This document shows, in pieces, positions 7,424 to 16,236 of a stretch of DNA of 19,148 bases. The stretch lies in IMG/VR virus record IMGVR_UViG_2531839179_000028. One strand, given 5' to 3'. The position numbers were made by a program, and so were the translations under genes. Position 1 is the stretch's first letter. Each line of letters starts with the position of its first letter. The notes beneath the pieces are model-generated. The model was not told where the DNA came from and ran no database searches. It saw nothing but the letters and a program-made list of their open reading frames with translations. This DNA is from a virus (lineage: Duplodnaviria; Heunggongvirae; Uroviricota; Caudoviricetes).

Positions 7424-7466
7424 CAGAACACCTTCAATTTTTAACCACAGAACGATGAGGCTAACC

Positions 7467-8019
7467 GTGGGTAAGCATCACTGGAAAGTAGAAAAACAGC
7501 CTGAGTGGTACGTGAAAGCTGTCAGAAAAACTATCGCGGCGTTGCCGGGGGGGGTACGCTGAAGCTGCTGAGTGGCTAGATGTAACAGAGAACGCTTTAT
7601 TCAACCGCCTTCGTGCAGATGGCGATCAGATTTTCCCGCTGGGATGGGCAATGATTTTACAGCGCGCGGCTGGCACTCACTACATTGCGGATGCTGTCGC
7701 ACAGTCTGCTGGTGGGGTGTTTGTATCGCTTCCTGAAATTGAGGAAGTAGAGAACGCCGATATAAACCAGCGCCTGCTGGAAGTCATCGAACAGATCGGG
7801 AGTTACTCAAAGCAGATTCGTTCGGCAATCGAAGATGGGGTAGTGGAGCCACACGAGCAGACAGCAATTAATGATGAGTTGTATCTGTCAATTTCGAAGC
7901 TCCAGGAGCATGCAGCACTGGTCTACAAAATCTTTTGCGCTCCAGAAAAGAGTGACGCCCGCGAGTGTGCAGCTCCGGGCGTCGTGGCGTTTTGTGTCTG
8001 TGGAGAAACTAACGCATGA
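7467..8019 (+). pseudogene. CII/YdaT-like early regulator interrupted by a frameshift at a G8 homopolymer
   Basis: GTG 7467 (GAGG 6 nt upstream; ATG 7455 in frame) opens a frame that stops at 7560-7562 just after G8 (7547-7554). A second frame is open from 7516 to 8019 with coding-like sequence (…AEAAEWLDVTENALFNRLRADGDQIFPLGW…) and no start codon before ATG 7651. Removing one G joins the two frames into one ~183-aa product. Confidence 0.5.
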
Positions 8020-13522: not shown

Positions 13523-14275
13523 ATGAACCTTGAAGCCTTACCAAAATATTACTCCCCAAAATCTCCAAAATTGAGCGATGACGCACCGGCGACAGGCTCA
13601 GGTGGTTTAACGATTACGGATGTGATGGCTGCGCAGGGGATGGTGCAGTCGAAAGCACCGCTTGGGTTTGCCTTATTCCTGGCAAAAGTTGGTGTTCAGG
13701 ATCCTCAATTTGCGATTGAAGGTCTGCTCAATTACGCGATGGCACTGGATAACCCGACATTGAACAAATTGAGTGAAGAAACCCGGTTACAGATCATCCC
13801 TTACCTTGTGAATTTTGCCTTTGCTGATTATTCCAGGTCTGCGGCAAGTAAGGCTCGCTGTGAGCATTGTGCTGGTACTGGATTTCATAATGTATTGCGC
13901 GAAGTGGTGAAACACTCCAGAAGCGGGGAATCTGTTATCAAGGAAGAGTGGGTGAAGGAACTATGTCAGCATTGTCATGGTAAGGGAGAAGTCAGCACAG
14001 CGTGCAGAGGGTGTAAGGGTAAAGGTATTGTCCTGGATGAAAAAAGGACCCGGCTTCATGGCACGCCTGTTTATAAGATTTGTGGGCGTTGCAATGGAAA
14101 CCGGTTTAGCCGTTTACCAACCACACTGGCGCGGCATCATGTCCAGAAGCTGGTACCAGACCTGACGGATTATCAGTGGTACAAAGGATATGCAGATGTC
14201 ATTGATAAACTGGTTACAAAGTGCTGGCAGGAAGAAGCATATGCAGAGATACAATTGAGAAATGTGACAAGATAA
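13523..14275 (+). CDS. Late-gene antiterminator, Q-like
   Basis: 250 aa with clustered CxxC zinc-binding motifs (CEHCAGTG…CQHCHGKG…CRGCKGKG…CGRCNG). It is the last gene before a strong terminator and the lysis cassette, the canonical Q position. GGAG sits 7 nt upstream of ATG 13523. Confidence 0.6.
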   Translation: MNLEALPKYYSPKSPKLSDDAPATGSGGLTITDVMAAQGMVQSKAPLGFALFLAKVGVQDPQFAIEGLLNYAMALDNPTLNKLSEETRLQIIPYLVNFAFADYSRSAASKARCEHCAGTGFHNVLREVVKHSRSGESVIKEEWVKELCQHCHGKGEVSTACRGCKGKGIVLDEKRTRLHGTPVYKICGRCNGNRFSRLPTTLARHHVQKLVPDLTDYQWYKGYADVIDKLVTKCWQEEAYAEIQLRNVTR

Positions 14276-14306
14276 ATGGTTTTCGCCGAAGATGACGACA
14301 TGATGC

Positions 14307-14335
14307 TTGCATTTTTCAAAAAATATGGATAAGAT
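14307..14335 (+). promoter_or_regulatory. Candidate late promoter (pR'-like) between Q and the tR'-like terminator
   Basis: TTGCAT (14307-14312), 17-nt spacer, TAAGAT (14330-14335). Weak match. The position fits the architecture of lambdoid late promoters, which sit immediately after Q. Confidence 0.3.
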
Positions 14336-14383
14336 TTTCCCAACGATGGGCTTTGTATGTCTACCGTTGATAAGATTTAAGAA

Positions 14384-14406
14384 CCCGCCACTGAGCGGGT
14401 TTTTTT
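14384..14406 (+). terminator. Intrinsic terminator (tR'-like) downstream of Q
   Basis: CCCGC-CACTGA-GCGGG hairpin followed by T7 (14400-14406). An almost identical copy occurs at 16215-16236. Confidence 0.7.
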
Positions 14407-14551
14407 GTGCCAGATGTCTCATGAAACTATGAAATGGATTGGTGCGTTAAACATTTTTTCTTATTATCTTTTAGATTTTGGAGAGATGGTTAACGTCTGT
14501 ATTCCAGAAACTCGATGATTATTTAATAAATTAGTTTCAATGATGCTTCTA

Positions 14552-15703
14552 AATAGCTGCGCGGAATAGTAGATCACTTTGAGGGAACTTAGCCCGGATT
14601 GTGCGATCTGATCAATCGCCAAATCAAAACAAATCACCAACCGGACTGAGCAATGCCGATCATAGCACCAATTTCCCGTGACGAACGACGCCTGATGCAG
14701 AAAGCCATCCATAAAACACACGATAAAAATTATGCCCGCAGACTGACTGCCATGCTGATGCTGCACCGGGGCGACCGTGTCAGCGACGTTGCCAGAACGC
14801 TCTGCTGCGCCCGTTCCTCTGTTGGACGCTGGATTAACTGGTTCACGCAGTCGGGTGTTGAGGGACTGAAATCATTACCTGCCGGGCGTGCCCGTCGCTG
14901 GCCGTTTGAGCATATCTGCACACTGTTACGTGAGCTGGTAAAACATTCTCCCGGCGACTTTGGCTACCAGCGTTCACGCTGGAGTACAGAACTGCTGGCA
15001 ATAAAAATCAATGAGATAACCGGTTGCCAGTTAAATGCCGGAACCGTTCGCCGCTGGTTGCCGTCTGCGGGGATTGTGTGGCGAAGGGCTGCGCCAACTC
15101 TGCGTATCCGTGACCCGCATAAAGATGAAAAGATGGCAGCAATCCATAAAGCACTGGACGAATGCAGCGCAGAGCATCCGGTCTTTTATGAAGATGAAGT
15201 GGATATCCATCTTCATCCCAAAATCGGTGCGGACTGGCAACTGCGCGGACAGCAAAAACGGGTGGTCACGCCGGGACAGAATGAAAAATATTATCTGGCC
15301 GGAGCGCTGCACAGCGGGACAGGTAAAGTCAGCTATGTGGGCGGCAACAGCAAAAGTTCGGCGCTGTTCATCAGCCTGCTGAAGCGGCTTAAAGCGACAT
15401 ACCGTCGGGCGAAAACCATCACGCTGATCGTGGACAACTACATTATCCACAAAAGCCGGGAAACACAGAGCTGGCTGAAGGAGAACCCGAAGTTCAGGGT
15501 CATTTATCAGCCGGTTTACTCGCCATGGGTGAATCATGTTGAACGGCTATGGCAGGCACTTCACGACACAATAACGCGTAATCATCAGTGCCGCTCAATG
15601 TGGCAACTGTTGAAAAAGTTCGCCATTTTATGGAAACCGTCAGCCCATTCCCCGGAGGCAAACATGGACTGGCAAAAGTGTAGCGGTATTAAGCGCAGCT
15701 ATT
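14552..15703 (+). mobile_element. IS630-family insertion sequence (1152 bp) with TA target-site duplication at a CTAG target
   Basis: Terminal inverted repeats AATAGCTGCGC… (14552-) and …GCGCAGCTATT (-15703). Flanking TA at 14550-14551 and 15704-15705; removing the element regenerates CTAG, the target I recall for IS630. It carries a single transposase ORF. Confidence 0.8.
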
Positions 15704-15786
15704 TAGGTTATGACTGTAATGAAAAAGGTATTAATAGCAGCGATAGGTTTTTGTTTAGTTGGTTGTGCAGGTATGAAATTACCTGA
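14653..15786 (+). CDS. IS630-family transposase with an apparent 1-nt deletion near the 3' end, causing read-through beyond the IS
   Basis: The ORF matches the IS630 transposase as I recall it through residue ~322. At the A5 run (15613-15617) one extra A would restore a frame ending …LLKKVRHFMETVSPFPGGKHGLAKV-stop at 15681-15683, inside the IS, for 343 aa. As sequenced, the frame runs across the right inverted repeat to 15786. Confidence 0.8.
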   Translation: MPIIAPISRDERRLMQKAIHKTHDKNYARRLTAMLMLHRGDRVSDVARTLCCARSSVGRWINWFTQSGVEGLKSLPAGRARRWPFEHICTLLRELVKHSPGDFGYQRSRWSTELLAIKINEITGCQLNAGTVRRWLPSAGIVWRRAAPTLRIRDPHKDEKMAAIHKALDECSAEHPVFYEDEVDIHLHPKIGADWQLRGQQKRVVTPGQNEKYYLAGALHSGTGKVSYVGGNSKSSALFISLLKRLKATYRRAKTITLIVDNYIIHKSRETQSWLKENPKFRVIYQPVYSPWVNHVERLWQALHDTITRNHQCRSMWQLLKKFAILWKPSAHSPEANMDWQKCSGIKRSYLGYDCNEKGINSSDRFLFSWLCRYEIT

Positions 15787-16135
15787 GTATTCGCAAGTTA
15801 AAGCAAGTCCGTATTATACAGATTGCCGTGCGTTTGCCATGGATGTTTATAAAAATGATGGATACAGCAAAATTGCGAAAACTACTATCCTTAGCATGGA
15901 TGATGTGAAGGCTAGATATATTGTGACAGGGTGTGTAGTTGCTATGGGGAAAAACACTGTAGAGGAAATTAAAGCTGATCTCTCTGCTAAAGGGAGTTCT
16001 TTTGGGCTTATCAGTGGAGCTTGTTCTAGTGCGGCATGTCGGGTTGATGTAGAGCAGCAAATGAACGCTTATGTACTTGGTAGTTATTATGCTGCAAATA
16101 AAAAATTCCCGGATAAAATGAAAGCAGAGTTTTAA
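15719..16135 (+). CDS. AT-rich secreted lipoprotein of unknown function (moron)
   Basis: Signal peptide with lipobox (MKKVLIAAIGFCLVGCAG). 138 aa from ATG 15719; an alternative ATG at 15710 adds MTV. Low GC compared with flanking phage genes. A terminator copy follows, and IS630 sits 13-14 bp upstream of the start. Confidence 0.6.
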   Translation: MKKVLIAAIGFCLVGCAGMKLPEYSQVKASPYYTDCRAFAMDVYKNDGYSKIAKTTILSMDDVKARYIVTGCVVAMGKNTVEEIKADLSAKGSSFGLISGACSSAACRVDVEQQMNAYVLGSYYAANKKFPDKMKAEF

Positions 16136-16214
16136 GTAAACCTTGTTTTCGATTATATGTCGAAGATAAATGTTAGTAACGGCATAATAAGTAAATATAT
16201 AGCTGTGATAGCAA

Positions 16215-16236
16215 CCCGCCACTGAGCGGGTTTTTT
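16215..16236 (+). terminator. Intrinsic terminator, second copy of the tR'-like sequence
   Basis: Identical CCCGC-CACTGA-GCGGG hairpin followed by T6. The wider stretch 16213-16240 is a near-identical direct repeat of 14382-14410. Confidence 0.65.

What the first reader, a model, noticed from the sequence alone, without database searches (positions are those of the whole stretch)
14552..15786. IS630 copy with a 1-nt homopolymer deletion in the transposase 3' end and a precise TA duplication at CTAG
The element is 1152 bp, whereas I recall canonical IS630 as 1153 bp. The missing base is in the A-run at 15613-15617. Restoring it yields a 343-aa transposase ending inside the IS; as sequenced, the frame reads through the right inverted repeat into the start of the lipoprotein gene, to 15786. 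It is either a sequencing error or a decayed, possibly trans-mobilisable IS copy.
Basis: partly seen in the sequence, partly recalled or inferred. Interest (0 to 1): 0.45.

Follow-up and report, generated by a model that had tools for sequence, protein, structure and literature searches.

The report
IS630 copy missing one base
This is an ordinary copy of the well-known mobile element IS630, newly inserted in a Shigella dysenteriae prophage, whose recorded sequence lacks one A in a run of six; that is either a fresh inactivating mutation or a sequencing miscall, and only the raw reads can tell which.

Summary
Every factual statement in the finding checks out. Window 14552-15703 is a 1152-bp IS630 inserted at a CTAG site with a TA duplication. 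The uninterrupted site (…GCTTCTAGGTTATG…) is present in phage Ayreon and many E. coli prophages. The copy is identical to an 1153-bp S. dysenteriae plasmid IS630 except for one missing A: the run at 15613-15617 is A5, and all four aligned reference copies have A6 or longer. Adding the A restores the exact 343-aa transposase WP_001121440.1. As recorded, the ORF runs through the right inverted repeat to 15786 (377 aa).

The window comes from the draft assembly of Shigella dysenteriae 155-74 (AFFZ01000109.1), and the 377-aa product is on record from that contig only. No full-length IS630 in 5,426 complete E. coli genomes or 72,556 plasmids has A5. The same contraction does occur in three other sequence backgrounds, all remnants or decayed relatives. 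The replaced 21-residue tail is as conserved as the rest of the protein, so the change is probably disabling.

A second, equally unique homopolymer frameshift lies in the same window (G8 against G7 in ymfL). Real slippage (about 0.5) and assembly miscall (about 0.45) cannot be separated without reads. Either way this is known biology of low interest.

The parts
13523..14275 (+). Phage antiterminator Q gene of the host prophage (context)
   Evidence: PHROG phrog_127, anti-termination protein Q-like, E 2.7e-108 over the full length. Annotated as Q in phage Ayreon. Pfam Antiterm on the called gene.
14382..14405 (+). Intrinsic-terminator-like stem-loop downstream of Q, upstream of the insertion (context)
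   Evidence: Sequence AACCCGCCACTGAGCGGGTTTTTT. The corresponding position is annotated as a terminator in Ayreon. An identical 24-mer recurs at 16213-16236.
14550..14551 (.). Left copy of the duplicated TA target (C at 14549 completes the half-site)
   Evidence: The empty site CTAG in Ayreon has a single TA.
14552..15703 (+). IS630 copy, 1152 bp (canonical 1153 bp)
   Evidence: 99.6-99.9% identity over 100% of its length to 1153-bp IS630 copies in Shigella and EIEC plasmids. One gap and no substitution relative to NZ_CP027028.
14552..14568 (+). Left terminal inverted repeat (IRL)
   Evidence: Inverted-repeat pair I1. Invariant in the four IS630 references.
14653..15786 (+). Transposase ORF as recorded: 377 aa. 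Residues 1-322 match the wild type. Residues 323-377 are frameshifted and read through IRR into the next gene.
   Evidence: ORF list. Pfam HTH_23/HTH_32/DDE_3, with DDE_3 at residues 177-315. NCBIfam NF033545 at 249.8 bits, profile positions 1-292 of 299. GenBank EGI89014.1, one contig only.
15613..15617 (+). A5 run (A6 in reference IS630): the one-base contraction. Codons 321-322 read AAA AAG instead of AAA AAA.
15681..15683 (+). TAG that ends the transposase in the wild-type frame (out of frame in the record)
   Evidence: The L001 CDS ends 20 nt before the IS end. Restoration test.
15687..15703 (+). Right terminal inverted repeat (IRR)
15704..15705 (.). Right copy of the duplicated TA target (G at 15706 completes the half-site)
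15710..16135 (+). 141-aa lipoprotein-like phage gene of unknown function. Its start lies 6 nt after the IS, and its first 77 nt are overlapped in another frame by the read-through ORF.
   Evidence: ORF list. PHROG phrog_4748, 1-141 of 141, E 7.5e-91. No Pfam family. Annotated as a hypothetical protein in Ayreon and IAI39.

Best explanation
An IS630 element transposed by the usual Tc1/mariner-type cut-and-paste route into the TA of a CTAG site. The site lies in the late-gene leader of a lambdoid prophage of Shigella dysenteriae 155-74, between the Q antiterminator with its terminator and a small lipoprotein-like gene. The insertion is recent: it has no substitution relative to an intact S. dysenteriae plasmid copy, and the site is empty in every related phage and prophage found.

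I take the one-base-shorter A-run to be a real replication-slippage contraction (A6 to A5). It keeps the HTH DNA-binding domains and the whole DDE_3 catalytic core, residues 1-322. It replaces the conserved 21-residue C-terminal tail (VRHFMETVSPFPGGKHGLAKV) with 55 unrelated residues read through the right end into the flank. The copy would then most likely be non-autonomous. Both inverted repeats and the flanking TAs are intact, so it could still be moved by transposase from other IS630 copies.

Shown here: the identity of the element, the insertion site, the one-base difference and its consequence for the ORF. Inferred: that the difference exists in the cell's DNA, that the altered tail abolishes activity, and that the copy can be mobilised in trans.
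For: Identity and indel. Target-site duplication against the empty site.

The same run is A5 on three other sequence backgrounds. One is a 125-bp IS630 right-end remnant on a ~127-kb plasmid family (pVirR1 and relatives), matched in 6 distinct complete plasmid records and two metagenome contigs. One is an internally deleted copy in Dickeya oryzae. One is an 86%-identical relative with a 15-nt deletion, seen in two independent SRA assemblies. These alleles are not each other's nearest neighbours, so the run is a natural, recurrent slippage site.

Elsewhere in the window, 42 homopolymer runs of 5-7 nt in 10.4 kb of gap-free alignment at 99% identity or more agree in length with E. coli IAI39. 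The record is therefore not riddled with homopolymer errors.

Tail conservation: the majority-residue fraction is 0.80 for residues 323-343 against 0.82 for 1-322, in 25 intact homologues down to 64% identity. The NCBIfam IS630 profile loses its last 7 positions and 8.7 bits.

Intact IS630 copies are common on S. dysenteriae plasmids, which could supply transposase in trans.
Against: The allele and its 377-aa product are on record from one contig of one draft assembly only. No full-length IS630 in 5,426 complete E. coli genomes or 72,556 plasmids has A5.

It is the only difference from an intact copy, which is also what a homopolymer miscall looks like.

A second unique, gene-breaking homopolymer-length difference (G8 against G7 in ymfL) lies 8 kb away in the same record.

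No read data or sequencing-platform information could be obtained. Loss of activity is inferred from conservation only: the AlphaFold model is unreliable over residues 289-343.
Confidence: 0.5

Rival explanations
1. Sequencing or assembly artefact. The cell's DNA has A6 and a perfectly intact, autonomous 1153-bp IS630. The draft consensus under-called a 6-base homopolymer, as pyrosequencing-type data do, or mis-built the consensus of a multi-copy repeat.
For: The source is a WGS draft with a 2011-era accession, and the strain has no complete genome. The allele is a singleton across all collections searched. It is the sole difference from an intact copy. A second singleton homopolymer frameshift lies in the same 19 kb: G8 in ymfL, where none of 1,677 E. 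coli places has the exact 81-mer carrying G8 and nearly all of the best listed hits span 80 nt, as expected for G7. My recollection, unverified here, is that this batch of Shigella drafts was 454-sequenced.
Against: 42 other runs of 5-7 nt in the window match a finished genome in length. The same contraction demonstrably occurs in nature. For a collapsed multi-copy repeat the read depth is high, which makes a random consensus miscall at a 6-mer less likely (inference). The collections that lack the G8 and A5 alleles contain no Shigella chromosomes other than this one, so uniqueness is weak evidence.
Confidence: 0.45
2. The A5 allele is real but not null. Low-level -1 ribosomal slippage on the newly created (AA)A_AAG motif (TTG AAA AAG TTC) puts ribosomes back into the wild-type frame and yields exactly the wild-type 343-aa protein (…LLKK|VRHF…). 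This would be a self-attenuated but still autonomous copy.
For: The sequence and frame arithmetic hold. A_AAG is a documented -1 shift-prone tetranucleotide in E. coli, and compensatory frameshifting at indels in homopolymers is known (PMC5009743).
Against: There is no stimulatory element: the 82 nt downstream fold no better than shuffles (z = +0.95), and I see no Shine-Dalgarno-like sequence upstream by eye. The P-site codon would re-pair as GAA, which is imperfect. Nothing suggests selection for the allele, since other A5 copies are remnants or carry further lesions.
Confidence: 0.04
3. The 377-aa protein is a natural, functional C-terminally extended transposase variant, or a fusion with regulatory meaning for the downstream lipoprotein-like gene.
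For: The ORF is open and was annotated as 'putative transposase' in GenBank. It covers the ribosome-binding region and start of the next gene.
Against: All intact homologues end at 343-347 aa with the conserved tail. The extension is simply whatever lies beyond the IS end in that frame, as shown by different tails at other insertion sites and in P0017. Its last 26 residues match the alternative-frame ORF of the empty site (P0136).
Confidence: 0.01

Closest known systems
IS630 of Shigella sonnei (IS630 family, Tc1/mariner superfamily); transposase WP_001121440.1 / WP_005136263.1
   Same: Same ends, same 5' leader and the same ORF for 322 codons. Same TA duplication within CTAG. 99.6-99.9% nucleotide identity, with no substitution relative to the NZ_CP027028 copy. 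The known mechanism is cut-and-paste into TA by a single DDE transposase (PMC2170065).
   Different: One A fewer in the A6 run, so 1152 bp instead of 1153 bp and a 377-aa read-through product instead of 343 aa.
Decayed or non-autonomous IS630-family copies with the same A5 run (Dickeya oryzae ZYY5 L006; Logan contigs L012/L013 encoding P0017; the 125-bp pVirR1 remnant L008)
   Same: Same contraction at the same run. P0017 shows the same frameshifted tail, LLKKFAILWKPSA…, running out through the right end.
   Different: Those copies carry further lesions (a deletion of about 415 bp, a 15-nt deletion, or truncation to 125 bp) and 2.4-14% sequence divergence. The window copy has no other lesion.
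Compensatory -1 frameshifting at A_AAG or at homopolymer indels (for example herpesvirus thymidine kinase G-run mutants; reviewed in PMC5009743)
   Same: An indel in a homopolymer creates a shift-prone site, and slippage there would restore the original frame.
   Different: No evidence here that it happens or matters, and no stimulatory structure is present.

Membership tests
IS630 (the element itself, IS630 family) | Terminal inverted repeats of IS630 | tested here: met
   Arms of 20 nt, 90% complementary. Both ends are identical to the four reference copies.
IS630 (the element itself, IS630 family) | Insertion into TA with a 2-bp TA duplication, preferentially within CTAG | tested here: met
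   CTA[IS]TAG in the window against a single CTAG at the empty site of phage Ayreon. The four reference copies are also flanked by CTA…TAG.
IS630 (the element itself, IS630 family) | Single transposase with N-terminal HTH domains and a DDE_3 catalytic domain | tested here: met
   Pfam HTH_23/HTH_32/HTH_29 and DDE_3 at 177-315, E 2e-24. NCBIfam NF033545 at 249.8 bits against a cut-off of 100.
IS630 (the element itself, IS630 family) | Canonical length of 1153 bp with an intact 343-aa ORF ending inside the element | tested here: not met
   1152 bp. The ORF is frameshifted after codon 322 and ends 83 nt beyond the IS. It fails by a single base and is a mutated or mis-recorded copy, not a different element.
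IS630 (the element itself, IS630 family) | Autonomous transposition | not testable with these tools
   Needs a mating-out or papillation assay in an IS630-free host.
Programmed-frameshift IS transposases (IS1/IS3 type; some IS630-family members) | A conserved slippery motif with a stimulator, joining a DNA-binding ORF to a catalytic ORF, conserved among copies | tested here: not met
   Reference copies have one continuous ORF. The shift lies after the catalytic domain. There is no downstream structure. The allele is a singleton among full-length copies.

The most novel reading that the evidence does not exclude
The A5 allele is real, and basal -1 ribosomal slippage on the (AA)A_AAG motif it creates regenerates a small amount of exact wild-type transposase. 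A one-base homopolymer contraction would then act as a reversible 'dimmer' of IS630 activity rather than a kill switch. It could revert either by translation slippage or by A5-to-A6 replication slippage.
Probability: 0.04. Interest if true: 0.3.

Novelty: already known. Interest (0 to 1): 0.08.

Why it matters
It matters little beyond annotation. If the deletion is real, this copy should be annotated as a frameshifted pseudogene or non-autonomous IS630, not as a 377-aa 'putative transposase'. It would be one more example of homopolymer slippage as the first step of IS decay in Shigella. If it is an artefact, it flags homopolymer errors in the AFFZ01 draft, together with the ymfL G8 run, and both genes are intact. 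The insertion itself, in the late-gene leader of an otherwise intact-looking prophage, may matter slightly more for that prophage than the missing base does. This was not tested.

Tried and rejected
1. Exact scan of one genome per species for the A5 34-mer found only a decayed Dickeya copy. The source species is not represented there by this strain.

2. Scans of viral contigs for the left junction and for the A5 allele found nothing. The metagenome scan found only the 125-bp remnant.

3. An 81-nt megablast was meant to separate A5 from A6 by identity band, but the '>=99%' records could not be listed. I replaced it with a 41-nt query that can seed only on A5.

4. A protein search with the frameshifted tail, meant to find the same junction in other assemblies, returned only alternative-frame ORFs. 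Most are partial calls at contig edges next to canonical IS630 copies at other insertion sites. 'KKFAILW…' follows a TGA in the canonical sequence, so P0135 is uninformative. P0136 is the empty-site ORF.

5. The AlphaFold2 model of the intact transposase, built from a 27-sequence alignment, has pLDDT below 50 over 289-318 and 325-343. It says nothing reliable about the tail.

6. The PDB sequence search found only the Sleeping Beauty catalytic domain, and the alignment stops at residue 309.

7. Literature searches did not reveal the sequencing platform of strain 155-74. The original IS630 papers (PMC213363, PMC208372) are not held.

8. A frameshift-stimulating RNA structure downstream of the run was rejected (z = +0.95).

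Full report
**What is there**

Window 14552-15703 is an insertion sequence bounded by imperfect inverted repeats. The arms are 14549-14568 and 15687-15706, 20 nt and 90% complementary. It is flanked by C-TA on the left and TA-G on the right.

Megablast finds it in 1,367 E. coli records and 2,172 plasmid records. The best hits are 99.6-99.9% identical over 100% of the query and are annotated 'IS630-like element IS630 family transposase'. With one exception (a 98.9%-identical copy spanning 1155 bp), every full-length hit listed spans 1153 bases in its record, against 1152 here.

I aligned the window with four such copies: a S. dysenteriae plasmid (NZ_CP027028), S. sonnei pSS_046, an EIEC pINV and E. 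coli SMS-3-5. The window differs from the S. dysenteriae copy by exactly one gap and no substitution. The gap lies in GTTG-AAAAAA-GTT: A5 at 15613-15617 here, A6 in three references, and A7 in SMS-3-5 through a G>A change.

The ORF as recorded is 14653-15786 (377 aa). It reads through the right inverted repeat and 77 nt into the next gene. Adding one A gives a 343-aa protein identical to the annotated transposase WP_001121440.1, which stops at the TAG 20 nt inside the element.

The uninterrupted target is present in phage Ayreon as …ATGATGCTTCTAGGTTATGACTG…. The same flanking sequence also matches, as two pieces consistent with an empty site, in mEp460, the Stx2c phages and many E. coli prophages. 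The insertion is therefore a clean TA duplication inside CTAG.

**Where it comes from and what surrounds it**

The 377-aa product is GenBank EGI89014.1, 'putative transposase [Shigella dysenteriae 155-74]'. It is encoded on contig AFFZ01000109.1 (207 kb) of draft assembly GCA_000211935.2. In a collection of about 15 billion proteins it is on record from that contig alone. The strain is a serotype 2 isolate known only as a WGS draft (PMC4374849).

The host locus is a lambdoid prophage running from integrase to lysis genes. It is 99-100% identical over long stretches to a prophage of E. coli IAI39 and to phages Ayreon and mEp460.

The IS sits downstream of the Q antiterminator gene (13523-14275; PHROG Q-like, E 2.7e-108) and of a terminator-like stem-loop (14382-14405). 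It ends 6 nt upstream of a 141-aa lipoprotein-like gene of unknown function (15710-16135; phrog_4748) and has the same orientation as the late genes. No complete E. coli genome has IS630 at this site: all listed matches to the right flank begin at the TA.

**How unusual the A5 allele is**

I used a 41-nt query centred on the run. It can seed a megablast hit only if the run is A5. It found five E. coli records and four plasmid records, six distinct records in all, each a ~127-kb plasmid of one family (pVirR1 and relatives). These plasmids carry only a 125-bp right-end remnant of an IS630 relative.

Two metagenome contigs hold the same remnant. Viral contigs hold neither the allele nor the junction. 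A scan of one genome per species found only Dickeya oryzae ZYY5, where a roughly 90%-identical copy has an internal deletion of about 415 bp and also A5.

A protein search turned up P0017 (381 aa) from two independent SRA-run assemblies. It is encoded by an 86%-identical relative with a 15-nt in-frame deletion and the same A5. It has the same frameshifted tail, …LLKKFAILWKPSA…, running out through the right end into another flank.

Over the last 122 nt, the four A5 alleles are not each other's nearest neighbours. The window allele is 0 differences from an A6 copy. The pVirR1 remnant is 3 from A6 copies but 6 from the other A5 alleles. The Dickeya and Logan alleles differ from each other at 10 positions.

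So the A6 run has contracted independently several times in decaying relatives. No other full-length, otherwise intact IS630 with A5 was found.

**What the change would do to the protein**

Residues 1-322 are unchanged. The Pfam HTH domains and DDE_3 (residues 177-315, profile 2-141 of 146) score the same in both forms. The NCBIfam IS630 model covers profile positions 1-298 of 299 in the intact protein (residues 29-330, 258.5 bits). In the window protein it covers only positions 1-292 (249.8 bits).

In 25 intact homologues down to 64% identity, the 21 replaced residues follow the consensus V-R-x-F-M-x-T-A-S-P-F-P-G-x-K-H-G-L-A-K-V. They are as conserved as the rest of the protein, with a majority-residue fraction of 0.80 against 0.82. 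That argues the tail is needed and that the frameshifted protein is impaired. This is an inference.

The AlphaFold model is unreliable over this region (pLDDT below 50). The only solved relative, the Sleeping Beauty catalytic domain, aligns only to residue 309. Both ends of the element are intact, and intact IS630 copies are common on S. dysenteriae plasmids. Mobilisation in trans is therefore plausible but untested.

**Real mutation or artefact?**

This is the one question the sequence cannot settle.

For an artefact:
- The allele is a singleton from one draft assembly.
- It is the only difference from an intact copy.
- The same window holds a second singleton homopolymer frameshift. The G-run at 7547-7554 is G8, where IAI39 has G7. 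It cuts a ymfL-like gene after 35 codons. None of 1,677 matching places in complete E. coli genomes has the exact G8 81-mer.

For a real mutation:
- 42 other runs of 5-7 nt in 10.4 kb of gap-free alignment at 99% identity or more agree with IAI39.
- The same contraction is demonstrably natural elsewhere.
- Homopolymer indels are the expected first lesions in unselected DNA such as Shigella prophages and IS copies.
- The collections in which the alleles are 'unique' contain no other Shigella chromosomes, which weakens that argument.

I could not find the sequencing platform. My recollection that this batch was pyrosequenced is unverified. I put the real mutation at about 0.5 and the artefact at about 0.45.

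**A minor alternative**

The contraction turns AAA AAA GTT into AAA AAG TTC. This creates an in-frame A_AAG, a documented -1 shift-prone site in E. coli (PMC5009743). A -1 slip there would restore exactly the wild-type sequence KK|VRHF…. There is no downstream stimulatory structure (z = +0.95), the P-site re-pairing is imperfect, and there is no sign of selection. I give this about 0.04.

The idea that the 377-aa form is a natural extended variant is contradicted by the uniform 343-347-aa length and conserved tail of intact homologues. It is also contradicted by the flank-dependent extensions seen at other sites.

**Comparison with what is known, and verdict**

The element is IS630 itself. Ends, target choice and transposase domains all pass the membership test. 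It fails only the 'intact 1153-bp / 343-aa' criterion, by one base. The family's mechanism is cut-and-paste into TA by a single DDE transposase (PMC2170065).

Frameshifted IS copies and homopolymer miscalls in drafts are both commonplace, and nothing here is new in kind. The decisive test is read-level or Sanger confirmation of the A-run at this specific copy. Interest is low (0.08).

Noticed in passing
window 7455-8019 (G-run 7547-7554): A ymfL-like prophage gene is frameshifted by a G8 run, so its ORF ends after 35 codons. With G7, as in E. coli IAI39, it would join the 7651-8019 ORF into one YmfL of about 188 aa. None of 1,677 matching places in complete E. coli genomes has the exact G8 81-mer. 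No gene was called here in the GenBank record. The same real-or-artefact question applies as for the IS630 A-run.
   Followed up: partly
window 14382-14405 and 16213-16236: An identical 24-nt terminator-like stem-loop (AACCCGCCACTGAGCGGGTTTTTT) occurs twice as a direct repeat. The two copies bracket the IS630 insertion and the 141-aa lipoprotein-like gene. The same pair is annotated as terminators in phage Ayreon, so the small gene looks like a terminator-flanked 'moron' cassette.
   Followed up: no
window 14276-15710: IS630 lies in the late-gene leader, after Q and a terminator-like stem-loop, and in the same orientation as the late genes. Q-modified late transcription would have to traverse the whole IS. 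The lipoprotein-like gene is now separated from its native upstream sequence by 1154 bp. Effects on prophage late expression were not examined.
   Followed up: no
L006 (Dickeya oryzae ZYY5, NZ_ML762922.1), roughly 785-1526 on the minus strand: An IS630 relative of about 740 bp with an internal deletion of about 415 bp. It has intact-looking ends flanked by CTA…TAG, an extra 1-nt insertion and the same A5 run. It is a MITE-like, non-autonomous derivative in a plant pathogen.
   Followed up: partly
L008 (pVirR1, NZ_CP031707.1) 1489-1613; also L010 and L011: A 125-bp right-end remnant of an IS630 relative, with A5, is conserved in a family of ~127-kb E. coli plasmids (pVirR1 and relatives). The same remnant occurs in two JGI metagenome contigs.
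   Followed up: partly
P0016 (S. flexneri, 406 aa; no window coordinates): An annotated 'IS630 family transposase' whose first ~316 residues are near-identical to IS630 (one substitution) and whose C-terminus looks like an IS3-family integrase-type core. It is presumably a chimeric ORF created by another IS inserting into an IS630 copy.
   Followed up: no
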